This document shows, in pieces, positions 2,482-16,255 of a stretch of DNA of 64,000 nt. The stretch spans positions 1 through 64,000 of the forward strand of contig JAYZAY010000062.1 in the NCBI GenBank assembly GCA_036339465.1, read 5' to 3'. Under the pieces are notes generated by a model. It worked only from the letters and a program-made list of their open reading frames with translations, did no database searches and was not told the DNA's origin. This DNA comes from Myxococcota bacterium. Lineage in GTDB: Bacteria > Myxococcota > XYA12-FULL-58-9 > JABJBS01. The position numbers and the translations under genes are program-made. Every line of letters begins with the position of its first letter. Within the stretch, counting starts at the first letter, position 1.

Positions 2482-3753
2482 TTAATGGGTTTCCACCAAT
2501 TCTAGAAGCTTTTTTGCCGACAGATCGCCGGGAAATGTGCGGAGATGGTGTCCTATAACCTTGGATGCCTCTCTAAGTTGTTGATTTCGTGTAAGGAAAT
2601 GAGCGAGGTGTAGGCTGGCCATGCGTTCGTTTTTGTCTTTATAGACCACCGCTTGTCGGTAGAGAGCTTCGGCTTCGTTGAGGGCGCCATCTTGCTCTGC
2701 CAACCTGCCGGCCCAGATAAAAAGTTGGGTGTCGTTTTCACCCTTGTTGAGCAGCGTTTCGAGGGCCACGCGGGCCCGCTTTCGCTCCCCCTTTTTCAAG
2801 CGGGCCTTGGCTTCTACGAGTATCATGTGCTTGCTGCGTTTCGCGGGGGGAACTTCTGCCAACCATTTGAGGGCCACGGTTTCGGCTTGGGCGGCTTCGG
2901 CCACCTCCAGCATGAGTTCTTGTTGTTTGCGGGTGAAGGAGTGAAAATTGCCCCGTTTCTGTACCCAAGTTTTGGCTACCTCAAGGGCATGTTCATGGTG
3001 GCCGGCCCCGTGTTGAGCATGGATGTGGGCGTAGAGGAGTTTGCGGTCGTTGGGAGATGCCATGTGGGCTGCTTCTAGAGCCGCCAAATAATGTTGATCG
3101 TGTTTCATTTCTTGTTGGGCAAAGGCCAGCTGTTTCCAGATTTGAGGTTGACCTGTGTCAAAACTAAGTAGGCCCAGTGCTGCGGATGATGCCTCGGGGT
3201 AGCGTCCCTGCTCGATTAATAGAGCGACGTCTAGCTTGCGAAAGGTTTGATGATGGGGAAAGCGCAGAAGGCCGATTTCGGTGAGTTTACTTGCGAGTCT
3301 TCTGTCTGCGGCCTTATAAGCGCTGTGGGTATAAAGCTGCAATTCAGTGAGGCTGGATTCATGGGGTTGGATGAGGCGCGAAAATTGGGTGACTGCGTTT
3401 TTCCAGTCTCCTTGTCTGCCCGCAACATGGGCGAGTGCGATTTTTGCTTCGCGGGAATCGGGGTCTATTTTGAGGGCGGCATGGTAGCTTGCTTTGGCAT
3501 TGTCTAGCTCGTTGAGTTCTGTCTGGGCGTGTCCCATGAGCACAAAGAGAGCACTGTGTTTTTCTCCGGTCCAGCTTTTAAGGGTTTGAAGTGCTGGGTG
3601 AGCCTGACCTTTCTGAAGCTTTTTTTGTGCGGTTTTGAGGACGGTGGCCAGTTCGCTGGATACCGCAGTGGTTTCTGCTTGGGCCTCGAGGAGGCCAAAG
3701 CTTAAAACAACGAGTACTATCAATAGGCCTAGAAATCGCCGTCGACATTCCAT
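2482..3753 (-). CDS. Secreted TPR-repeat protein, last gene of the TonB operon
   Basis: N-terminal signal peptide (AQA), repeated TPR-like helical pairs, overlaps tonB. Confidence 0.8.
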   Translation of the reverse strand: MECRRRFLGLLIVLVVLSFGLLEAQAETTAVSSELATVLKTAQKKLQKGQAHPALQTLKSWTGEKHSALFVLMGHAQTELNELDNAKASYHAALKIDPDSREAKIALAHVAGRQGDWKNAVTQFSRLIQPHESSLTELQLYTHSAYKAADRRLASKLTEIGLLRFPHHQTFRKLDVALLIEQGRYPEASSAALGLLSFDTGQPQIWKQLAFAQQEMKHDQHYLAALEAAHMASPNDRKLLYAHIHAQHGAGHHEHALEVAKTWVQKRGNFHSFTRKQQELMLEVAEAAQAETVALKWLAEVPPAKRSKHMILVEAKARLKKGERKRARVALETLLNKGENDTQLFIWAGRLAEQDGALNEAEALYRQAVVYKDKNERMASLHLAHFLTRNQQLREASKVIGHHLRTFPGDLSAKKLLELVETH

Positions 3754-4409
3754 GCTAACTCCAACTCTGTGACGCCCTTGGCGGCTTTTCCCTTACGGGT
3801 TCCAGGCTCATATTTGAGGGTGGTGGCCAGTCTTTTGGCGGCTTGGTCAAAAACGCCCACGGGCACTGATTCTAGAATTCGGATAGCTTCTACATCACCG
3901 CCTTGGCCGACATTGATGCGAAGTATGGTTTTACCTTTGATGCCCCGGCGCTTGGCCATGCGGGGATAGAACCGAGCCATATTGGGCGCAAAGAGGAGGC
4001 GCGGAGGTGTGTCCCACCGGGGGGCGCTATCCAGGGCGGTTCCTTGATTCCATTTTGGGGATGGTAGGGCCAGAGTCCAACTTTCGCCTTCCAAACTACT
4101 TGATGGCAATGTCAGTGCGGATGATGTGTCTGGCTGATGAGAAAGCTCAAGGGAAGGAAGCTCCAGGGCCATAGGGGGTTCGGGATTCTCTTTGGGAGTT
4201 TGTTCTTCTGGGGTGATTTCGGCAGGGGGAGGGGCGGGGATGACCGAAATGGTGGTGATGGGGATGACCGGTGTTTGGGGAGCTGAGGATACCGATGAAG
4301 CGTAGGCGAGTCCGGCGACGATGAGGAGATTAAATCCCAAGCTCAAGACACTGGCCACCAAGAGCTTTTTGATAGGGAGGTCCTTATTTTTTGGCAAGAG
4401 CGGCGACAT
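3729..4409 (-). CDS. tonB: TonB family energy transducer
   Basis: N-terminal TM, Pro-rich linker, C-terminal YPRMAKRRGIKG...GVFDQAA...YEPG; start uncertain (4409 ATG or 4427). Confidence 0.9.
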   Translation of the reverse strand: MSPLLPKNKDLPIKKLLVASVLSLGFNLLIVAGLAYASSVSSAPQTPVIPITTISVIPAPPPAEITPEEQTPKENPEPPMALELPSLELSHQPDTSSALTLPSSSLEGESWTLALPSPKWNQGTALDSAPRWDTPPRLLFAPNMARFYPRMAKRRGIKGKTILRINVGQGGDVEAIRILESVPVGVFDQAAKRLATTLKYEPGTRKGKAAKGVTELELAWNVDGDF

Positions 4410-4794
4410 CAACCTGCTTAGCTCCACTTTGTTTACAACTGTCTAAAACTTTGAGGAGTCGTCCGGTGGGGACTTCACGGTCGGATTGAATCACGATTCT
4501 TTCGGTACCAAAATCCTTGAGGAGACGGGTGATGGTGCCTGGATCGTTTACGGATATTTCGCGACCAGCGGCGTAGACCTTGCCGGTTTTATCGATGGCC
4601 ACAGCGAGGAAGGTGCCGTCTATTTTTTGCGCAAATGCGCTTTGGGGTCTCGAAATATCTACCCCGGACTCTTTAATAAAAGTCGTGGTGACCACAAAGA
4701 AGACCAGGAGAATAAAGACCATATCGATCAGGGGAGCCATCTCGACCTCGGCTTTATTGCGGTTTCCCTTCGCACCTAGGACTCTTCGGCTCAT
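4384..4794 (-). CDS. exbD: ExbD/TolR biopolymer transport protein
   Basis: MAPLIDMVFILLVFFVVTT, IQSDREVPTG. Confidence 0.95.
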   Translation of the reverse strand: MSRRVLGAKGNRNKAEVEMAPLIDMVFILLVFFVVTTTFIKESGVDISRPQSAFAQKIDGTFLAVAIDKTGKVYAAGREISVNDPGTITRLLKDFGTERIVIQSDREVPTGRLLKVLDSCKQSGAKQVDVAALAKK

Positions 4795-5204
4795 GATGGC
4801 GCCATTCCTAATTTGAGAAGAAATTCGCTTCTTCTGGTGAGTATGCGTTCAGCGAGAAGCCCAGGGGCGGCGATGGTGAGTCCATATTGGGTGGTCTTGA
4901 GGGCTTGGCCGATGCCTGCGCTCATGAGCTCACTTTGAGCGCCCAATTCGATGCCTTGAAAGGTGGCAATAATGCCGCTTACGGTGCCGAGTAGCCCAAG
5001 GAGGGGTGCTGCGGCGACCATGGTCCGGATGACGAGGAGTCCTCGTTGAAGTTCAAAGCTGTTGGGCTGGGAGGTGGGGTGGTTTTCGATAAAGAGGGTG
5101 TAGAACCGCTCTGTGATGCGGAAAAAAAGGATAAAACCCACACCGAATAGCGCCAGCATGGTGCTTCCCCCTGCGTTGAACCATGATTGAGTGGTGGCAA
5201 GCAT
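4791..5204 (-). CDS. exbB: MotA/TolQ/ExbB proton channel (short)
   Basis: APLLGLLGTVSGII, GIGQALKTTQYGL. Confidence 0.92.
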   Translation of the reverse strand: MLATTQSWFNAGGSTMLALFGVGFILFFRITERFYTLFIENHPTSQPNSFELQRGLLVIRTMVAAAPLLGLLGTVSGIIATFQGIELGAQSELMSAGIGQALKTTQYGLTIAAPGLLAERILTRRSEFLLKLGMAPS

Positions 5205-6520
5205 TAGGCTCTATGACTCATTTTGGGGAGGGGGTCGATGCTGAGGATGGCGTTACGGCTTTCCTCCAAGAGTGATTGGCGCCGCTCCACGGCTCGAGTG
5301 GCCCAAGCATGTCCAAGGATCAACGGAACGGCAACAATCAGGCCCAACTGGGTGGTGATGAGAGCGACGGATATTCCTCCGGAAAGGAGTTGGGGGTTTC
5401 CGGTACCGAATTCGGTGATGACGTCGAAAGTCGAAATCATACCGGTCACGGTGCCAAGCAATCCCAAGAGGGGGGCGATTCCCGCTGTGGCACTTAGCAG
5501 ACTTAATGAGCGTTCCAACTTGGGTTCCTCAGAAAGCAGGGCGGCTTCCAGGGCGGCTTCCCTATTCTCGCGACTTTCGTAGAGGGTATCGATGCCGGTG
5601 ATGATGATACGCTCTACATCGGCTTTGCCTTTTCTGGCCAGGCCGCGAGCTTCATCGGCTCGCCCCTGCATGAGTAGACGAATGACTTTGGTGCTCAAAA
5701 GTGGGTCTGCTCGGTTCATAAGGATGAACCACAGGCGCTCTGTGAAGAGCAGGAGCCCTAAGAATCCCACAATGACAATAGGCCACACGAAGGGGCCACC
5801 GGCGAGCACCACCTGCCACAGTGACGCTTCTTCCAGCGGCGGGCGAGTGGTGAGGCTGCCGTCTATATCCACGGGGATGCTGGTCGATTGGCCATTTTGG
5901 AGGGCTTTAAGTGCGGTTCGTGCTGCGGGGCTGAACATGGGGCCTCGGATCAAAAGCATGCCGTCTTCTTTTTGCTCTAGGAGTCCGGCGAGATGACTCT
6001 CGTCGCCAACGGCTACTGCCCGTGCGTTTCCAAAATGGATGACGTTCACAGCTTCGCTTTTACCGCGACGATCCACGATGGTTTGGGTCTCGGTGCGAAG
6101 TGCGAAGCCATTGTTGAGTTCGGCGAGTCGGTCTAAGAGTCCTTGGGTTACCCGTGTTTCGAATTCCTCCCAGGGGAGAAGAAGGTTTTCTGGCCCGAGG
6201 TTTGCGGCCAATCTCATTTGTTCTTGGCGCTGTTGTTGCTTTTGCAGCACCCTCTTGGCCGATTGTTCGGCATCCATTTGGGCGCGCTTGGCGGTTTGGA
6301 CCTTTTCTTCCAAAGTGCGAATTTCGTCTTGGAGCACGCTCAGTTGGAGGTAAGAGGTTTGCAATTTCTGGCCGAGTTTTTTCCGTTCCTCGATGATTTT
6401 CTTACGGGCATGTCTGAGCTGGTTTGCTTCGCTTTGATGGCGTGCTTTGGCGTCGTCTAGAAGTTGGGACTGGGGTAAAATAATTCCTAGGGATAGGAGG
6501 GCGCCGAGGAGAAGGCTCAT
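5204..6520 (-). CDS. Long MotA/TolQ/ExbB protein with N-terminal coiled coil (TtpC-like)
   Basis: Signal peptide, coiled coil, C-terminal APLLGLLGTVTGMI and GISVALITTQLGL. Confidence 0.9.
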   Translation of the reverse strand: MSLLLGALLSLGIILPQSQLLDDAKARHQSEANQLRHARKKIIEERKKLGQKLQTSYLQLSVLQDEIRTLEEKVQTAKRAQMDAEQSAKRVLQKQQQRQEQMRLAANLGPENLLLPWEEFETRVTQGLLDRLAELNNGFALRTETQTIVDRRGKSEAVNVIHFGNARAVAVGDESHLAGLLEQKEDGMLLIRGPMFSPAARTALKALQNGQSTSIPVDIDGSLTTRPPLEEASLWQVVLAGGPFVWPIVIVGFLGLLLFTERLWFILMNRADPLLSTKVIRLLMQGRADEARGLARKGKADVERIIITGIDTLYESRENREAALEAALLSEEPKLERSLSLLSATAGIAPLLGLLGTVTGMISTFDVITEFGTGNPQLLSGGISVALITTQLGLIVAVPLILGHAWATRAVERRQSLLEESRNAILSIDPLPKMSHRA

Positions 6521-7263
6521 GGCTTTTTCTCCTCTTGGGGGGGAACAGGTTGAGCTTGGTTTGGCCAGGGAAGGGTCACCAAGACTGGGGCGAGTCTGCC
6601 TTGGGCGATGTGGATGGCTTTTTCTATGGCGCTTTGGTCTTCGGGGGTTACGTTGTCTCTGAGTTGCAAATGCCCGTTTTCCATGGTGGCTGTTCCCTGC
6701 TCTTTGCCATCAAGACTTTGCCACCATCCGGCGACCCCGCCGAGACGCAATAAATGCACCGAGATCCGTTGGCCATGGAGGTGGCCAGAGGTAAGCTCGA
6801 TCCGAACCTCTTCGGAGCGATTCTCTGCTTCGTGGAGGGCCTGGTAAGCGGAGGCGAATGAACCTTGCAGCTGGTCAAGCTTTTGTGGGGGGGCAAGGGC
6901 GCCGGGGAGTGTCGAGTTTTGGAGGGCAAGAAGGTTTTTCTGAATGGCGGTGGCCAATTTTTTTTCGAGGGTATTGAGGGCCTCAACATCGGTGTCGAGG
7001 GCGATATTGTTTTTGGTGGTGATGGTTTTAAGTTTGCCTTGGAGTGCTTTTTTGAGTTTCTCAAGTTGGCCGAGTTGCTTTTGGTTGGTCTCGATTTGGA
7101 GTTTTAACAGCTCTCGGTCACTTTCCCACTGATTGAGCTCTTGGGCACTTTGGGCGCGTAAGTCATTGGTGGCTCTCAGGGTTTCGAGAATCTGGGTGGG
7201 TTGGTCTGCCCCACTACTTAGGGGGATATGGCCGATGATGATAATGAAAATTACTTGCAACAT
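6517..7263 (-). CDS. DUF3450-like periplasmic coiled-coil protein, first gene of the TonB operon
   Basis: Signal peptide, coiled coil, LLRLGGVAGWWQSLDG and IEKAIHIAQGRLAPVLVTLP; usual position before TtpC-like ExbB. Confidence 0.75.
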   Translation of the reverse strand: MLQVIFIIIIGHIPLSSGADQPTQILETLRATNDLRAQSAQELNQWESDRELLKLQIETNQKQLGQLEKLKKALQGKLKTITTKNNIALDTDVEALNTLEKKLATAIQKNLLALQNSTLPGALAPPQKLDQLQGSFASAYQALHEAENRSEEVRIELTSGHLHGQRISVHLLRLGGVAGWWQSLDGKEQGTATMENGHLQLRDNVTPEDQSAIEKAIHIAQGRLAPVLVTLPWPNQAQPVPPQEEKKP

Positions 7264-7436: not shown

Positions 7437-7455
7437 GCAAATGAGAATCATTATC
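7437..7455. promoter_or_regulatory. Fur box in divergent promoter region
   Basis: GCAAATGAGAATCATTATC matches 16/19 of GATAATGATAATCATTATC; lies between the TonB operon and ORF 7508. Confidence 0.85.
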
Positions 7456-7507
7456 AGTAATATGGTATGGATGATTGTCGTTTTTGCGGTGATGGAGGAG
7501 GGAGCTT

Positions 7508-8005: not shown

Positions 8006-8250
8006 GGTGGCGAAGGGGGCATGCTTCATCTAGGGAGCGGCTTATAGAGGCGTGTAACCCAACCAATGTCATGTGTATTTGTCCTGTTCTTATGGACGGT
8101 TGAACCCATTTGGTCTTATGGACAAAATGTAGGCTCTTGGGGACGGTGATTGGAACTGAAACCGGGAATATTTGAAGAAGCTGTCCGAAGAATACTCAGT
8201 TACTAGCATGGGTAGAACTAGCAGTCATCCGCCACCAAGAGCCTGTCATT

Positions 8251-8385
8251 GTGAGCTTAAGAGCTCATTGTTTTGCCGAAGCGATCCTATGGCAGGGCGG
8301 TGAGGCAAAAACCGCCAAGGAGGCTTTTAGGATGTTGCCGACAGCTGATCGTGAGAACTTGATCCAATTTTTGGAGATTCTATGA
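8251..8385 (+). pseudogene. Remnant: C-terminus of a di-heme oxidoreductase (DUF1111-like)
   Basis: Reads RAHCFAEAILWQGGEAKTAKEAFRMLPTADRENLIQFLEIL*, resembling the family C-terminus (RAR..EAILWHGGEA...F..L...DR..L..FL.SL); no upstream body, in-frame stop at 8173-8175. Confidence 0.8.
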
Positions 8386-8961
8386 GCTTTGTGTCTCGTG
8401 GTTTTTTACTTTATGTGCGGACTGGTTTGTCTTTTTCCCATGATGGGATGTGACTTGGAAGCCACGGGCGCTAATGCCGAAGATGAGTATCGACGTCAAT
8501 GGCTTGAGTCGGTCATTACCACGTCCCTATTTACCTGGTATGACGCACTTATCGATGAAACTCTCGGGATGGAAAACTCGGCCGAACAATTTTGTAGAGC
8601 TCCAACGGCTGAGCGGTTGGAAGACCTCAAATCCAAATGGTGGTCGTCTAGGAGCCCCCGGAAGAAAGTTGAAATTTTCAAGTTTGGTCCGTATTCCAAG
8701 AGGCCGAGATATTTGGGAGCGCATATTGATTCTTGGCCGATTCGATTGAGCTCGGTGACGGAGGAGCTTATGAGCTCTGAACCGCTCAAGATTGAACAAA
8801 TGGGGGTTACTCGAAAGGAATTTCCTACCATTGAGTATTTCCTTTATGGGCCAGAGGCATTGGCGGATTTCAGCGATAGTCCCCGGCGTTGTGAGTATTT
8901 GTTCCTCTTAACCGTGGATCTCGCAAGTTCAGTCAAAGAGCTTTCTGATGCTTGGCGGCCG
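8382..8961 (+). pseudogene. Truncated imelysin-family lipoprotein
   Basis: ATG at 8382 overlaps the previous stop (ATGA); apparent frameshift in signal peptide; lipobox MMGC; FKFGP, IDSWP, KEFPTIEYFLY, RRCEYL, AW; similarity ends at AWRP and the frame runs on through the next promoter. Confidence 0.75.
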
Positions 8962-9050
8962 ATAATGGTATGGCCAAAATCGTGGCGCATAAAATTCCTA
9001 CTTGCATCTTGTGCTATTCGCCCTTCCTGCGCAGAATCAGCTGGCCTACT

Positions 9051-9069
9051 GATATTGAGAATAAGTATC
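9051..9069. promoter_or_regulatory. Fur box
   Basis: GATATTGAGAATAAGTATC, 15/19 match to consensus, with outer inverted repeat ACTGATA...TATCAGT. Confidence 0.75.
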
Positions 9070-9192
9070 AGTGTCAATATTAATCCTTGCTTAAGAAATA
9101 TGGATGGTCATATGGAGATAAACAATGCTTTCTAGAGCACTTGGCGTTGACTTTTACTCCATTTCTACGTAATCCGGTTTTCAGCACGATGG

Positions 9193-9207
9193 TGAGAATG
9201 ATTCTCA
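9193..9207. promoter_or_regulatory. Fur box (7-1-7 palindrome) just upstream of the RBS
   Basis: Perfect TGAGAAT-G-ATTCTCA ending 23 nt before ATG 9231. Confidence 0.8.
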
Positions 9208-9230
9208 TCATTAGATGCAGGGAGATACTC

Positions 9231-11006
9231 ATGCTTAGAAGAAAACCCGTTGGCTTCATTGGGGCCGTTGTTATGACTTTGTTAACCATCGTGGGTTGTG
9301 GAGACAGCGATCATGATGATGATACAACCACCAGCATCGCCACTGATACGGCGGCTGATACGACGGCGACTGATGCGACGACTGATACGACGGCGACTGA
9401 TGCGACGACTGATACGACGGCGACTGATACGACGACGACGGATACAACCACCACCGATACAGGCACCGATACCCAAGGCGGTGGGAACTACAGTTCAATG
9501 CTCGGAACTCCTCCTGACACCTACAGGTTTACCATCCCAGAAGCCTTTGTGGATGGTGACGAAACCGGTGAAGAGAGCAACATTAGCTACACCGGCCAGA
9601 TTTATCGCCAGAGCCACATCTCAGCCATCAAAAAGTTGATGGGGGATTGGCAAACGCCCCTTTCTACAAACGACACCGCCAACTTGCCCGCTGAAGTGAG
9701 TGGCAGTATGGAAGGTGCTTACGCTGCGCAACTAGAAGCTTGGTATAACGGTGGAAATACCGACACCATGATCACGGAATCCGCACCTGTGGCGAGCTTG
9801 CCCGATGGCAAAACATTCAAGCAGGCAACTTTGGCCGATTTTGGGAGCAGCAAGAGCCTTTCTGGCAAGATTGTAGGTAAGGATTCTACTGCTTGGGATG
9901 CTGACGCTTTTACATTTGCAGGATGGGACCTGGATATCACCAAGGATTCAAACTGGGCATCTGTGACCAAGGCTGACAAGGCTGACGCACTCGTTAAAGC
10001 ATTCTTCCACCAAACCGACGTTTTGGCCAATCAATTCGCCAATGGTGAGCAGGATCTGGTTGCGGCCGGTTTGACCTCAGGTGACCTCGAACCAACCAAA
10101 TATTTTGTGAACAACAAGGGCCATGACTTCCAGCAGTTGACTCAAAAGTTCCTCTTGGGTGCGGTGACCTTCAGTCAAGGTTGCTCTGATTATCTACGCG
10201 CGGACCTCGATGGCAAAGGTGTGAAGGGTGATGCGAAGGCTGAGAAGTCTGAAGGTGCGAATTACACTGTGGTACAGCATGGTTGGGACGAAGCTTTCGG
10301 ATACTGGGGCGGAAGCCGAGACTTCACGCACCGAGCGGCGGCAGATGGCAAAACCGTGGAAGAAACCCTCAAGGGCGCAGCGGCCCACGACACCGACGGC
10401 AACGGTGAAATCGACCTCGTGAGTGAGCACATCTGGGGAACGGCCATGAACGCGCTCAAGCGTGACGTTGGCTCCAAAGACGTGGTTGATGGCAGCGGCC
10501 ATTCCTTGGCAACAAGCTTTGCCAAAAACATTTTCAATGCTTTCAAAGCCGGCCGTCACTATCTTAAGTTTGGCATCACCTATGACGGTTTTGCTTCCCA
10601 CGTTCTTCCCGTCATTATCGACGAGCGAAAGAAAATCTGTGACAACTGGGAAATGTCTATCGCTGCGACTGTGGTTCACTACATCAACGACACCTTGGGT
10701 GATATGAAACTCGGTACTCAGGTATACGCTGATGCGGATGCCTACATGACCCACGCCAAGCATTGGGGCGAGCTCAAGGGTTTCGCTCTAGGTCTTCAGT
10801 TTCGTTACGATTCAGAGATCCACAAGATACCTGAAGGCGAAGCTAAGAGCCATTTCGCCAAGTTCCACGAGCTTGTGGGTGATAAGCCTGTTCTCGTAAC
10901 GGCGTCTGAGTCAGATAAAGAAGCCTACAAGGCTCAATTGGAACAAGCACGCGGCATCCTCAAAGCAGCCTATGGTTGGGCTGATGAAGTTGTGGCCGTT
11001 TGGTAA
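9231..11006 (+). CDS. DUF4856-like lipoprotein (imelysin-like, iron-regulated)
   Basis: RBS GGGAGA, lipobox IVGC, SYTGQIYRQ, QQLTQKFLLGAV, HGWDEAFGYWG, HWGELKGFALGLQF; start 9231 rather than 9087. Confidence 0.85.
   Translation: MLRRKPVGFIGAVVMTLLTIVGCGDSDHDDDTTTSIATDTAADTTATDATTDTTATDATTDTTATDTTTTDTTTTDTGTDTQGGGNYSSMLGTPPDTYRFTIPEAFVDGDETGEESNISYTGQIYRQSHISAIKKLMGDWQTPLSTNDTANLPAEVSGSMEGAYAAQLEAWYNGGNTDTMITESAPVASLPDGKTFKQATLADFGSSKSLSGKIVGKDSTAWDADAFTFAGWDLDITKDSNWASVTKADKADALVKAFFHQTDVLANQFANGEQDLVAAGLTSGDLEPTKYFVNNKGHDFQQLTQKFLLGAVTFSQGCSDYLRADLDGKGVKGDAKAEKSEGANYTVVQHGWDEAFGYWGGSRDFTHRAAADGKTVEETLKGAAAHDTDGNGEIDLVSEHIWGTAMNALKRDVGSKDVVDGSGHSLATSFAKNIFNAFKAGRHYLKFGITYDGFASHVLPVIIDERKKICDNWEMSIAATVVHYINDTLGDMKLGTQVYADADAYMTHAKHWGELKGFALGLQFRYDSEIHKIPEGEAKSHFAKFHELVGDKPVLVTASESDKEAYKAQLEQARGILKAAYGWADEVVAVW
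9355..9428 (+). repeat. 27-bp coding tandem repeat (~2.7 copies) encoding a Thr/Asp linker
   Basis: CTGATACGACGGCGACTGATGCGACGA twice plus a partial copy; DTTATDATT units. Confidence 0.9.
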
Positions 11007-11053
11007 AAAGGCTTGTGGTTATGAATGAATACGGTTGTAAGTGAAAGGGCAGC

Positions 11054-11083
11054 CCGGCTACAGGGGGAGACTCTTGTGGTCGG
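11054..11083 (+). terminator. Intra-operon RNA hairpin (partial terminator or stabiliser)
   Basis: 13-bp stem CCGGCUACAGGGG/CUCUUGUGGUCGG with 4 G-U pairs and a GAGA tetraloop, followed by a pyrimidine-rich tract. Confidence 0.55.
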
Positions 11084-11126
11084 CTTCTCTTGTTAAACCT
11101 GGCTGAGTCGTGTAGCCCCTCAATCT

Positions 11127-12497
11127 TTGGAGTCATCGGTGTATCTGCGTCACTTTCTACATTCTTTTCGATTTCACCACTTCACCCTCGTTCTTATGGT
11201 GATGGGGTTTGCGGCATGTTCCTTGACTGCCCGGCAAGAGGCCGCAGAAGATAAGAATCAGCGTGAGGTTGTTACCACAGACGTCTCCACTGATACCACG
11301 ACAGACGATTCGGCAACGACTTCCGATGATGGAGCTTTTGCCGATGCTTTTACCAAGACTGCGCTCTTGGAAGGAATCGCTCAGAATGTGGTTTTCCCTG
11401 GCTACGAGTTTGCGCTGATTAAAACAAAGGTGCTCCAGTCTTCTGTGCAAGCTTATGTCACCGCACTCGAGGCTGGGGACGCAGCCACAGAGTTAGTAGC
11501 GGCCCAGGAGGCTTGGAAGGCAGCGGCCTTGGCTTGGCAAGAAACGGAACTCTATCAATTTGGGCCTGCGGCTGATCTCGGTGGCGTGGCCACTGCCATG
11601 GGTGCGAAGGGTTTGCGCAAACAAATATACTCCTGGCCCCTAACCAATCCCTGCCGGGTAGACCAGGAATCTTTGGAAAACGTATTTTCCGCGGCCAACT
11701 ACACGATGAACGAATTAGAAAATGTCTATGGTCTGGATGCCATTGAGTACCTACTTTTTAATCGCGAAACGACCAATGCGTGTAGTTCCGGCCATGTGGT
11801 GAATAACACAGAAAAGGAAGTTCATTGGGCACAACTTTCCGATTCCGATATTCGTGAAAGGAGAGCGCACCATGCCTTGGCTTTAACCAAAGAAGTGAAT
11901 CGCCAAGTTGAAAGCTTGATTTTTGCCTGGAAGCCCGGTGGCGAGAACTACATGGGGTCGTTTACCACGGCGGGCAACGGAAGTTCCTTATTTGGTTCTG
12001 TGCAACTTGCGTTAAACGATGTGACAGACGCCCTCTTTTATTTGGATACTTTGGTGAAGGATAAGAAATTGGCCAAGCCTGCGGGTATTCAAGATTGTAC
12101 CGCGGCAAGCTGTGAGGGTTATGTTGAAAGTCTCTATGCGCGGTACTCCAAAGAAATGTTGCATGCCAATTTGGTAGGTTTTCAGAAAATATTTCTCGGC
12201 GGTAAGGCGGATGTGGATGCCATTGGATTTGATGATTACCTGGTGTCGGTAGGAGCGAAGGATTTAGCCGAGCGTATGACCAAGAATATCCAGATTGCAG
12301 TGGATGAGCTGTCAATGATGGAGGGCAGTCTTTATGGTGCGGCTCAAAGTTTTTCAGGAAACACATGCGATACCGATGAGCCCGAGCTCTGTGCTGTTTA
12401 CCGGAAGGTCAAGGCAGTGACTGACGACTTGAAAACCCAATTTGTAAATATCCTCGATCTGGAACTGCCGCAGTTCGCAGAAGGGGACAACGACTGA
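11127..12497 (+). CDS. Imelysin-family (M75-like) lipoprotein
   Basis: Lipobox FAAC, AQEAWK, YQFGP, IYSWP, GLDAIEYLLF, KDKKLAKPAG, VESLYA, C-terminal EGDND; start uncertain. Confidence 0.9.
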   Translation: MESSVYLRHFLHSFRFHHFTLVLMVMGFAACSLTARQEAAEDKNQREVVTTDVSTDTTTDDSATTSDDGAFADAFTKTALLEGIAQNVVFPGYEFALIKTKVLQSSVQAYVTALEAGDAATELVAAQEAWKAAALAWQETELYQFGPAADLGGVATAMGAKGLRKQIYSWPLTNPCRVDQESLENVFSAANYTMNELENVYGLDAIEYLLFNRETTNACSSGHVVNNTEKEVHWAQLSDSDIRERRAHHALALTKEVNRQVESLIFAWKPGGENYMGSFTTAGNGSSLFGSVQLALNDVTDALFYLDTLVKDKKLAKPAGIQDCTAASCEGYVESLYARYSKEMLHANLVGFQKIFLGGKADVDAIGFDDYLVSVGAKDLAERMTKNIQIAVDELSMMEGSLYGAAQSFSGNTCDTDEPELCAVYRKVKAVTDDLKTQFVNILDLELPQFAEGDND

Positions 12498-12507
12498 GCT
12501 CCTACTT

Positions 12508-13887
12508 ATGTGGACCCAAACTAAAAGCTTATCCCTTGAAGTCGACGGCGCGGGCCCAGCTGTCTTTCGCATTCTTTTTGGGCTACTTGGGTTTTGGAGC
12601 GCGTTACGCTTTATCCTCAATGATTGGATTGAGCGATTTTTTGTGGTGCCCACCTTCTTCTTTAAGTATCAGGGGTTTGAATGGGTGACGGCCTGGTCAC
12701 AAACGGGGATGTATATTCATTTTGGACTCATTGCCTTGAGCGCGCTCTTGGTGACCCTGGGCCTTTTTTATCGGGTTAGCGTTGTCGTTTTCTTTCTTTC
12801 TTTCACCTATGTGGAATTCATCGACGTCACGAATTATCTCAATCACTACTATTTCATCTCGTTGGTGAGCTTTTTGATGATTTTCATGCCTTTGAATCGG
12901 TGTTTTTCCCTCGATGCTTGGTTTAAACCGTCACGCGGATCGGGGCATGTACCTTTATGGGTTTTGAATCTTTTGCGATTTCAGGTGGGCTGTGTGTATC
13001 TCTACGCAGGGGTGGCCAAGATGGGTGCCGATTGGCTCCAATATGCGCAACCCCTAAATATCTGGCTTTCTCCTAAGACCGATATGCCCCTCGTTGGACC
13101 ATGGATGGATTCTTTATGGCTCCATTATGGGATGAGTTGGATGGGCTGCTTTTTTGATACAACCATTGTGTTTTGGCTCCTGTGGAAACGGAGTCGACCC
13201 TTTGCCTATGGGGTTGTCGTGTTTTTTCACCTTTTCACGGGCTACCTTTTCAATATTGGTCTCTTTCCCGTGATTATGATGGCCTCTGCGACGATTTTCT
13301 TTGACCCCTCCTGGCCACGTCGCCTTTTGGGAAGTAGTGTTCCCGGCTTTTCGCTTTCTGCGCCCCTACGTCCAGGTCACTTCTGGGGACTACACGGATT
13401 TGGTAAGGTGTTGATTCTCGGCTACTGCTTGGTGCAGCTGCTTTTGCCCCTTCGTACGTTTACCTATGACGGCAATGTTCTTTGGCATGAAGCGGGTATG
13501 CGCTGGTCTTGGCGAGTGATGGTTCGGCAAAAGACGGCGAGTCTAACCTACAAAGTAACGCTGCCGAAGATAGGTCGCACCACGCTGGTTTCACCCTCGA
13601 AATATCTCACCCGCCATCAAGAGCGTGAAATATCTACCCAGCCCGACTTGATTTTACAGTTGGCCCACCATATCGCCCGAGATTTCGAGGCCAAAGGTCA
13701 CGAAAGTGTGGAGGTTCGAGCGGAGGTAACCGCCTCGCTCAATGGTCGTCGGGCACAGGTTTTGGTGGACCCAACAATAGATCTTGCAAAAGAGGAAGAT
13801 GGTTTTGGTCCCAAGAGTTGGGTGCTACCAGCTCCCACTGACCCTCCTTTACAATTGAATAGGAAAGTAGCCAGACACAGTCTGTGA
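12508..13887 (+). CDS. HTTM-domain protein, vitamin K-dependent gamma-carboxylase-like
   Basis: FRILFGLL, YLNHYYF, YLYAGVAKMGADWL, NIGLFP, RWSWRVM, QPDLILQLAHHIA, SLNGR, VDPTIDL. Confidence 0.92.
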   Translation: MWTQTKSLSLEVDGAGPAVFRILFGLLGFWSALRFILNDWIERFFVVPTFFFKYQGFEWVTAWSQTGMYIHFGLIALSALLVTLGLFYRVSVVVFFLSFTYVEFIDVTNYLNHYYFISLVSFLMIFMPLNRCFSLDAWFKPSRGSGHVPLWVLNLLRFQVGCVYLYAGVAKMGADWLQYAQPLNIWLSPKTDMPLVGPWMDSLWLHYGMSWMGCFFDTTIVFWLLWKRSRPFAYGVVVFFHLFTGYLFNIGLFPVIMMASATIFFDPSWPRRLLGSSVPGFSLSAPLRPGHFWGLHGFGKVLILGYCLVQLLLPLRTFTYDGNVLWHEAGMRWSWRVMVRQKTASLTYKVTLPKIGRTTLVSPSKYLTRHQEREISTQPDLILQLAHHIARDFEAKGHESVEVRAEVTASLNGRRAQVLVDPTIDLAKEEDGFGPKSWVLPAPTDPPLQLNRKVARHSL

Positions 13888-13895
13888 GGCATTGA

Positions 13896-16130
13896 ATGAC
13901 ATTTCTGCGGTATCGGCGACACATTTTTATCGTGCTTTTTGCGACAACTTTTTTTGTTCCAAAACTTATATGGGCTCAGGGATCTTCTGGCGCCAATGAG
14001 AAGAGTGAATCTGTGGGTTACGATAAGGTCGAAATCATTGGAGATGATACAGAGCAGTTACAATCCATTCCCGGTTCTGCTTCGATGATTAATAAGGAAG
14101 AATTAGAGCGTTTTGAATACGATGATATTCACCGGATCCTCAGCTCTGTGGCGGGGGTTTATATCCGGGAGGAAGATGGGTATGGTCTGCGTCCTAATAT
14201 AGGAATGCGCGGAGCTGCTTCTGACCGGAGTAAAAAAATTACGCTGATGGAAGATGGCGTGTTGATTGCGCCTGCTCCTTATTCGGCGCCAGCAGCCTAC
14301 TATTTTCCCTTGATGACGCGGATGTCTGGGGTGGAAGTTTTCAAAGGGCCGGTGTCTATTCAGCATGGACCGCAGACTGTGGGGGGAGCGGTCAATCTTA
14401 TTACTTCGACCATTCCCAGAAAGCTTCGTTTTAAATTTGATGTGGCAGGTGGCATGGACCTTTATTCCAAAGTTCAGGCGACTGCAGGCGGTAGCCATGG
14501 CCAGTGGGGGTGGCTGGCCGAAACTGTTTATCTAAGAAGTGATGGTTTCAAAGAAGTCGATGGTGGTGGTGATACAGGTTTCAAAAAATTGGGAACCATG
14601 TTGAAGGGGCGATGGAGTTCACAGGTGCAGTCTGGTGATTATCACCAATGGGATCTTAAGGTAGGTTATGGCGTAGAGGAATCTAATGAGACCTATTTGG
14701 GGTTAAGCGATGATGATTTTGAAGAGAACCCTTATCGTCGATATCGCGCGACCTATCTGGACCTCATGAAATGGCGCCACGCTCAGATTCAGGTTTCCCA
14801 CACTTTTCTCCGGGGTGAGAGTTTTGAACTTAAGACCACCGCTTACCTAAATCACTTCTGGCGGAGTTGGGGCAAGGTAGCCGAATTTGTGGAACGCGAT
14901 TTTAAGAGTATCCTAGCGGCCCCGGACGTTTCTTCGGAGAACCGTGCTTATTATGATGTACTGACTGGGAACAAGAATTCCGAAGACGAACTCGGTGAAT
15001 TGGCGACCATCCTCTATGGCACCAATGCGAGAAATTTTCTTTCCACTGGTTTACAGTCGGTAGGGGCATTTTATTTCGAAACGGGCGACTTAAAACACGC
15101 GTTGAAGTTCGGCTTTCGCTATCACTTTGATGGCATTGAGCGCGATCAATATGCCCAGGGCATGCTGATGAAGGATCAAGTGTTGGAAAACGATGGCCTC
15201 GGTGAGCGGCCCTACACTCAAAACCGGGCGCAAACCCATGCGGTGGCTCTATACGCCCATGAACATATGACTTTTGGTGATCTCAAGGTGAGTCCCGGTC
15301 TTCGTTTTGAGTGGATCCGATCACAACTTGTGGATGACCTTAAGGGGGTGACTTTGGATCCCCGTGCGTATGGTGTGCTCATTCCGGGGATTGGAGTCTA
15401 TTATGGAATCACACCACAATTAGGGGTTTTAGCGGGGACGTATCGGGGGTTTAGTCCTGTCACTCCGGGCAGTGGCGCTGAAACGAAACCTGAGACGAGT
15501 GTGAATTCTGAAGTTGGTGTGCGTTATTCCGGATCTCAGGCCAATGCCCAGGTGGTTGGGTTTTACAATCTGTATCAGAACCTAACCACAAGCTGCGGCG
15601 CGTCGGCCGGATGTGATATTGAGAAGAGCGGGCTACAATACAATGCAGGATCTGTGGATATCTACGGTGTTGAAGCGGAAGTTGGATACCGTTTTGAGAT
15701 TACGGAGGCAATAACTTTGCCTCTGAGTCTGACCTACACCTTCACGCAAACGGCCTTTAATGAAGATCTGGATTCCGCTGATCCGCTGATTGGTCAGGCC
15801 AACATTGGCGATGAATTGCCCTATGTTCCCGAGCATACCGGTGCCTTAAAACTCGGGCTTGAACACGAAAAAATCTATTTCGAATTGGCGACTCGCTATA
15901 TCAGCCCCATGCGCGACAAAGCGGGAAGTGGACTGTTGAAAGTGGGCGAGTATGCAGAGGCTCTGGTGATGGTCGATGCGGCGATGGGCTGGCACTTCAC
16001 CGAAGGGGCAACTGTGTATGTGATTGCAGATAATATTTTAAATGAACACAAGATTGTGTCTCGGCGCCCCTACGGCGCTAGACCGTCGAAACCATTGGGC
16101 GTGGTCGTTGGTTTAAAATGGTCACTCTAG
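13896..16130 (+). CDS. TonB-dependent receptor (FecA-like)
   Basis: Plug motif EEDGYGLRPNIGMRG...RSKKITLMEDG...APYSAPAAYYFP; C-terminal NILNE...RPYGARP. Confidence 0.95.
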   Translation: MTFLRYRRHIFIVLFATTFFVPKLIWAQGSSGANEKSESVGYDKVEIIGDDTEQLQSIPGSASMINKEELERFEYDDIHRILSSVAGVYIREEDGYGLRPNIGMRGAASDRSKKITLMEDGVLIAPAPYSAPAAYYFPLMTRMSGVEVFKGPVSIQHGPQTVGGAVNLITSTIPRKLRFKFDVAGGMDLYSKVQATAGGSHGQWGWLAETVYLRSDGFKEVDGGGDTGFKKLGTMLKGRWSSQVQSGDYHQWDLKVGYGVEESNETYLGLSDDDFEENPYRRYRATYLDLMKWRHAQIQVSHTFLRGESFELKTTAYLNHFWRSWGKVAEFVERDFKSILAAPDVSSENRAYYDVLTGNKNSEDELGELATILYGTNARNFLSTGLQSVGAFYFETGDLKHALKFGFRYHFDGIERDQYAQGMLMKDQVLENDGLGERPYTQNRAQTHAVALYAHEHMTFGDLKVSPGLRFEWIRSQLVDDLKGVTLDPRAYGVLIPGIGVYYGITPQLGVLAGTYRGFSPVTPGSGAETKPETSVNSEVGVRYSGSQANAQVVGFYNLYQNLTTSCGASAGCDIEKSGLQYNAGSVDIYGVEAEVGYRFEITEAITLPLSLTYTFTQTAFNEDLDSADPLIGQANIGDELPYVPEHTGALKLGLEHEKIYFELATRYISPMRDKAGSGLLKVGEYAEALVMVDAAMGWHFTEGATVYVIADNILNEHKIVSRRPYGARPSKPLGVVVGLKWSL

Positions 16131-16255
16131 TGTGTGAGAATGATGTTCAAAGTCGATGAACCAAACCATTTAATACCAAAGGCCGATGCCAGTCTCGCTT
16201 AGGAATTTTGAGGGTCGGTGGATCACCGAAAGAAAGGTTAGATTAGAAAGAAAGA

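What the first reader, a model, noticed from the sequence alone, without database searches (positions are those of the whole stretch)
9051..16130. Iron-uptake operon containing a vitamin K-dependent carboxylase homologue
Seen: two Fur-like boxes precede DUF4856-like lipoprotein, imelysin, HTTM protein and TonB-dependent receptor; the last three are 8-10 nt apart. The HTTM protein keeps YLNHYY and YAGVAKMGADW, which from memory match the human GGCX segments carrying His160 and catalytic Lys218. Knowledge: similar gene clusters exist in other bacteria but the role of bacterial GGCX homologues is unresolved. No siderophore synthesis genes are in the window. Inference: the enzyme may use a quinone to carboxylate Glu in the acidic co-encoded lipoproteins (Gla metal sites), or act as a quinone-linked redox step in iron release.
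Basis: partly seen in the sequence, partly recalled or inferred. Interest (0 to 1): 0.7.

Follow-up and report, generated by a model that had tools for sequence, protein, structure and literature searches.

The report
Vitamin-K enzyme paired with iron-protein tail
A widespread bacterial iron-uptake gene set carries a relative of the human blood-clotting carboxylase next to a lipoprotein ending in Asp-x-Asp, and because two unrelated enzyme families take its place next to that same tail in other bacteria, it likely modifies the tail into a built-in iron grip, which one mass-spectrometry experiment could test.

The parts
7442..7456 (.). Fur-type 7-1-7 box upstream of the divergent ExbB/ExbD/TonB cluster
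   Evidence: perfect site, one of two in the genome
8218..8385 (+). remnant: C-terminal ~55 codons of a di-haem DHOR (DUF1111) gene
8389..9135 (+). truncated second imelysin (homology ends near 8961; no D-x-D tail)
9056..9070 (.). Fur-type box, one mismatch
9193..9207 (.). Fur-type box, perfect 7-1-7, 23 nt before the DUF4856 start
9231..11006 (+). DUF4856 lipoprotein; Thr/Asp linker; invariant or near-invariant H350, D353, E354, E474, H508, E514 in predicted helices (possible metal ligands, inferred)
11139..12497 (+). imelysin-like lipoprotein of the GxxxxE (IPPA) type (start GTG 11139 or TTG 11127)
12486..12494 (+). codons of the C-terminal D-N-D tail, proposed substrate
12508..13887 (+). 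HTTM / vitamin K-dependent carboxylase homologue (459 aa; N112, H113, K171, W176, D217, H241, F253 match human N159, H160, K218, W223, D263, H287, F299)
13896..16130 (+). TonB-dependent receptor, no curated family reached (best: siderophore receptor and FecA models, far below cut-off)
2482..7263 (-). divergent DUF3450-ExbB-ExbB-ExbD-TonB-TPR cluster (energiser, probably co-regulated)

Best explanation
The locus is a TonB-dependent uptake operon, likely repressed by Fur under iron, whose HTTM enzyme has the GGCX fold and catalytic lysine and likely matures the neighbouring imelysin lipoprotein by modifying its C-terminal Asp-x-Asp tail. Shown: gene order, fold, conserved quinol/CO2-site residues, the invariant tail and its co-occurrence with HTTM or a substitute enzyme. 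Inferred: at the periplasmic face HTTM would deprotonate menaquinol with Lys171, let O2 form the strong base, remove a proton from a tail Asp (as MloH does on an Asp substrate) and add CO2, giving a malonate-type group (about 0.27), or add oxygen, giving hydroxy-Asp (about 0.18). Family-invariant Arg34, Arg332 and Lys342 would hold the acidic tail. The modified tail would act as a protein-tethered siderophore that captures Fe(III) for the receptor and DUF4856. In other bacteria a di-iron FAH enzyme or DUF1513 would make an equivalent group on the same tail.
Against: No activity or contact is shown. Lys217 is Ala in 111 of 111; a preprint states that Leptospira homologues without Lys217 epoxidise without substrate activation (10.1101/2025.02.09.637231), which fits an uncoupled quinol oxidase. 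Asn290 is Thr, Ser300 Pro, and Glu82 and Arg436 are not kept. Tail-less imelysins are mostly one clade (14 of 17) and the 11 tailed DUF4856 proteins may be one clade, so tail loss and tail transfer rest on about three events. An unmodified D-x-D could itself be the metal ligand or a docking motif. Three different chemistries need not give one product, and DUF1513 has no shown activity. FAH active sites face the cytoplasm (PMC13486548). Stand-alone HTTMs exist (17 of 83 and 16 of 60 without an adjacent imelysin), though most sampled differ at the active site (Asn at 244 in 8 of 10).
Confidence: 0.45

Rival explanations
1. HTTM is a quinol-linked redox partner: the unmodified tail docks an iron-loaded imelysin on the membrane enzyme, which would reduce or oxidise the iron (or make peroxide for it) with menaquinol, without changing the protein.
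For: Lys217 to Ala in 111 of 111, the change tied to uncoupled epoxidation in Leptospira; imelysins are usually paired with redox enzymes (PMC3143127); the operon has no permease or ferric reductase of its own; a docking motif would also track its receptor.
Against: The substitutes face different compartments (FAH cytoplasmic side; DUF1513 exported), which suits a substrate that travels but not a fixed redox step. The substrate and CO2 pocket (N159, H160, F299, M402) and the lumenal domain are kept in full, whereas the viral epoxidase-only forms lose them. Bulk turnover would burn menaquinone to epoxide (inference). DHOR is present together with HTTM in 9 of 80 loci.
Confidence: 0.24
2. HTTM (or FAH) makes or modifies a small molecule or membrane lipid that serves as the chelator bound by imelysin; the tail is simply part of the ligand site.
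For: The only characterised bacterial carboxylating homologue, MloH, acts on a small-molecule Asp intermediate; FAH-family enzymes act on lipids; giant viruses fuse HTTM to a sterol desaturase (PMC13486548).
Against: No synthetase or acyltransferase travels with the operon in the neighbourhoods inspected; HTTM and FAH exclude each other here instead of co-occurring; it does not explain why the tail moves to DUF4856.
Confidence: 0.15
3. One reading: GGCX-like gamma-carboxylation of several Glu residues in both acidic lipoproteins, giving Gla metal sites.
For: Fold and core catalytic residues kept; periplasmic topology fits exported substrates; three Glu are invariant in DUF4856 and one in imelysin.
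Against: Tyr395 hydroxyl absent in 60 of 111, clamp B/propeptide site absent (match ends at human residue 508 to 523); the invariant Glu lie in predicted helices; DUF4856 is dispensable in family f16; the invariant tail residues are Asp.
Confidence: 0.07

Closest known systems
Human gamma-glutamyl carboxylase GGCX (PDB 9bum, 9wfn and others)
   Same: Fold over human residues ~47-523; N159, H160, A214, K218, W223, D263, H287, F299, W399, M402 kept.
   Different: No clamp B / propeptide site or C-terminal domain; K217A, N290T, S300P, Y395 variable, E82 and R436 not kept; no Gla-domain substrate.
Riemerella anatipestifer RAYM_09779-09794 (PMC5609570, Table 4)
   Same: Same four annotations in the same order (hypothetical, imelysin, vitamin K-dependent gamma-carboxylase, TonB receptor); all four up 2.1-3.1 in low iron and listed as Fur-regulated.
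   Different: A table entry only, no function studied; still iron-responsive in the fur mutant (2.7-3.1) and only 1.4-1.9 up in the mutant with iron; orthology taken from names and order, not sequence.
MloH (malonomycin biosynthesis)
   Same: Bacterial HTTM enzyme that carboxylates an Asp residue (seen only as passages citing it).
   Different: Acts on a PKS-NRPS intermediate, not on a protein; sequence not compared here.
Leptospira carboxylase orthologue
   Same: Lacks Lys217 (passage).
   Different: Reported as uncoupled epoxidase; the primary paper was not held; its lack of Glu carboxylase activity is recalled, not read.
MbnH-MbnP (methanobactin operons)
   Same: Works like it: an oxidative enzyme converts a residue of the neighbouring protein into part of a metal-binding site (PMC11951088 passages).
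   Different: Di-haem enzyme, Trp to kynurenine, copper; unrelated folds.
IcmP/IrpA-DHOR-IPPA-DUF1513 clusters (PA4370-4373, VC1264-1266; PMC3143127)
   Same: Fur-regulated, same IPPA-type imelysin with a D-G-D end.
   Different: DUF1513 instead of HTTM, and ICMP-type imelysin + DHOR instead of DUF4856; the paper proposes no tail modification in the parts read.
Giant-virus VKE/VKED (PMC13486548)
   Same: HTTM core with K218, linked to a sterol desaturase.
   Different: Truncated, lacks the 374-418 substrate region that is present here; fused to or beside the desaturase instead of alternating with it.

Membership tests
HTTM / VKGC structural family | HTTM domain plus VKGC lumenal domain above Pfam cut-off | tested here: met
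   269 and 161 bits against cut-off 27.7
HTTM / VKGC structural family | GGCX fold | tested here: met
HTTM / VKGC structural family | catalytic Lys218 and quinol-site W223, D263, H287 | tested here: met
   K171, W176, D217, H241; by sequence alignment, no residue-level structural superposition was available
GGCX-type protein Glu carboxylase | Glu-anchoring triad N159, H160, Y395 | tested here: not met
   N112 and H113 kept, Y395 position is Met331 here and non-Tyr in 60 of 111
GGCX-type protein Glu carboxylase | coupling residue Lys217 | tested here: not met
   Ala in 111 of 111
GGCX-type protein Glu carboxylase | propeptide-binding clamp B domain | tested here: not met
   protein ends at the equivalent of human ~508-523
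GGCX-type protein Glu carboxylase | quinol-, O2- and CO2-dependent carboxylase/epoxidase activity | not testable with these tools
   needs assay
IPPA/PA4372 family of imelysin-like proteins | imelysin domain with GxxxxE instead of GxHxxE, lipoprotein signal | tested here: met
   PF09375; GLDAIE in the translation; profile match to 3pf0 through the last position
Fur regulon | Fur-type palindrome in the promoter and a fur gene | tested here: met
   (pattern partly post hoc)
Fur regulon | derepression in low iron in this organism | not testable with these tools
   shown only for the Riemerella gene set
MbnH/MbnP-like metal-site maturation pair | enzyme-dependent covalent modification of the neighbouring protein | not testable with these tools
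   co-occurrence only
DUF4856 as an imelysin-fold protein | profile or fold match to imelysins | tested here: inconclusive

The most novel reading that the evidence does not exclude
Imelysin lipoproteins are protein-tethered siderophores: their C-terminal Asp-x-Asp is converted into an Fe(III) chelator by any of three unrelated enzymes, and the HTTM version is bacterial vitamin K (menaquinone)-dependent protein carboxylation, a likely ancestral job of the blood-clotting carboxylase.
Probability: 0.3. Interest if true: 0.92.

Novelty: new variant of a known kind. Interest (0 to 1): 0.72.

Why it matters
Bacterial GGCX homologues have no known protein substrate, and imelysins have been tied to iron uptake for decades without a ligand. 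The comparative pattern names one substrate (three C-terminal residues), one readout (+44 or +16 Da) and two further enzyme families (an FAH clade and DUF1513) that would gain a function at once. If true it gives a siderophore-free iron capture route in many Bacteroidota, myxobacteria and Pseudomonadota, explains why recombinant imelysins bound no metal, and offers a simple bacterial model of vitamin K-dependent carboxylation.

Full report
Observation. The four genes, their order, the 10- and 8-nt gaps and the two motifs are as described. DUF4856 most likely starts at 9231, just after a perfect Fur-type palindrome at 9193; this and a site at 7442 are the only perfect sites in the genome (0.07 expected), and the 9056 site has one mismatch (the pattern was partly fitted after seeing the sites). 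The five closest related operons have such a site at their start, seven other loci scanned had none at the operon start. The genome holds one Fur, MenB and a VKOR-thioredoxin gene. Upstream lie the ruins of an older cluster, a DHOR C-terminus and a truncated imelysin, and a divergent ExbBD/TonB cluster. In Riemerella anatipestifer four genes with the same annotations and order rise 2.1-3.1 in low iron and are listed as Fur-regulated, though they still respond to iron in the fur mutant (PMC5609570 Table 4). The closest HTTM relatives come from Myxococcota and Bacteroidota records.

The partner. Of 80 HTTM loci, 77 hold an imelysin, 66 DUF4856, 65 a receptor, 9 a DHOR. In an even sample of 201 genomes of the window's phylum, DUF4856 is in 2 of 64 genomes of the largest family while imelysin-HTTM stays adjacent; 66 of 83 HTTM hits there and 44 of 60 in a 231-genome Bacteroidota sample have an imelysin within 1.5 kb. 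The imelysins are about 25% identical but two Asp at the extreme C-terminus are invariant (52 of 52). The same residues are disordered in the IPPA crystal, and recombinant imelysins bound no iron, haem or zinc (PMC3143127).

Exchange of enzymes. Five of six DUF4856-imelysin-receptor operons without HTTM that I fetched carry a fatty-acid-hydroxylase/sterol-desaturase gene (PF04116, FAH) directly after the imelysin or after the receptor. None of 80 FAH-anchored metagenome loci holds HTTM (36 hold an imelysin, 40 DUF4856; many contigs are short), and none of 80 HTTM loci holds the close FAH clade (one distant FAH 7 kb away). On an imelysin tree made without the tail, the HTTM/FAH label changes 14 times among 145 leaves (parsimony; several nodes are weakly supported), and the window's imelysin is sister to two FAH-linked ones. 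In 121 Pseudomonadota genomes, 26 have imelysins, 24 of these DUF1513, 1 HTTM (the seed genome); two genomes carry one locus with DUF1513 and another with HTTM or FAH. DUF1513 has a twin-arginine signal and five invariant His, as a metal-binding propeller would (function inferred).

The tail tracks the enzyme. Read directly, 107 of 107 HTTM-adjacent, 34 of 34 FAH-near and 21 of 21 DUF1513-adjacent imelysins (one has two extra residues) end in D-x-D; of 23 with neither HTTM nor FAH near, 17 lack it and 6 have it (tail-less loci were fetched on purpose). In the even samples, with the tail judged by how far the profile match reaches and two contig-cut hits left out: own phylum 72 tailed (61 HTTM, 7 FAH, 4 neither) against 25 tail-less (none with either); Bacteroidota 44 tailed (43 HTTM) against 7 tail-less (none with HTTM within 1.5 kb; no close FAH in that sample). 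The five tailed exceptions have HTTM or FAH elsewhere in the genome. One row of these counts is the unpublished genome G180; no claim depends on it. Tail loss happened about twice (a 14-member clade beside DHOR and a barrel protein; duplicate copies in three HTTM operons). Most telling, in 11 of 11 loci with DUF4856 and FAH but no imelysin, DUF4856 itself ends in E-x-D, against 0 of 104 where an imelysin is adjacent (these 11 may be one lineage).

Mechanism. Three unrelated proteins that face different compartments (FAH cytoplasmic side per PMC13486548, HTTM periplasmic side by analogy to GGCX, DUF1513 exported) alternate beside one short, unstructured, acidic C-terminus of an exported protein. 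A substrate that passes through all these compartments explains this more simply than a fixed redox step (inference). I therefore favour maturation of the tail: menaquinol and O2 give the base, a tail Asp is carboxylated (precedent MloH on Asp) or hydroxylated, and the product chelates Fe(III) as hydroxy-Asp does in peptide siderophores (established knowledge, recalled). It works like MbnH/MbnP but is not a member of that family, and it fails three defining features of GGCX-type Glu carboxylases. All chemical steps are inferred; no complex model could be run. Rivals: redox partner with the tail as docking motif (0.24), small-molecule or lipid substrate (0.15), Glu-to-Gla as first proposed (0.07).

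Verdict. The operon is common and its iron control is already in a published table, but my searches found no account of its mechanism. The tail-enzyme link turns an open question into one direct experiment. New variant of a known kind; interest 0.72.

Noticed in passing
L120:7310-10591, L121:3806-7123 (also L139, L141, L145, L147, L149, L168, L184, L214): FAH lies in one open frame with the TonB-dependent receptor (about 1100 aa): an inner-membrane enzyme fused to an outer-membrane barrel, which would need internal cleavage.
   Followed up: partly
L161:6965-8974 (similar lengths in L148, L156, L157, L188, L212): FAH fused to an ABC-type solute-binding protein (Pfam on L161), downstream of the tailed DUF4856.
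   Followed up: partly
window 8218-9135: Decayed DHOR-imelysin cluster directly upstream, with its own Fur-type box at 7442: the DUF4856 operon seems to have replaced it.
   Followed up: partly
L127, L128, L129: Stand-alone HTTM paralogues (His at the Y395 position, Asn290 kept, WHMK motif) sit next to what look like the RNA polymerase beta/beta' genes in small-genome family f15, which has no imelysin; probably another substrate.
   Followed up: partly
L217-L228, L125, L126: A tail-less imelysin subfamily in a conserved barrel protein-imelysin-DHOR operon, sometimes with a Rieske protein.
   Followed up: partly
L003:13337-14479 and other DUF1513 loci: DUF1513 has five invariant His spaced about one per propeller blade and a twin-Arg signal; candidate periplasmic metallo-oxygenase.
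   Followed up: partly
P0044, P0112: HTTM homologues fused to TPR repeats, a possible substitute for the GGCX clamp.
   Followed up: no
window 16135-16149: A two-mismatch Fur-like site directly after the receptor stop codon.
   Followed up: no
window 9330-9470 and 11270-11330: Thr/Asp-rich repeat linkers after the lipobox of both lipoproteins; they account for much of the acidity and are not conserved.
   Followed up: partly
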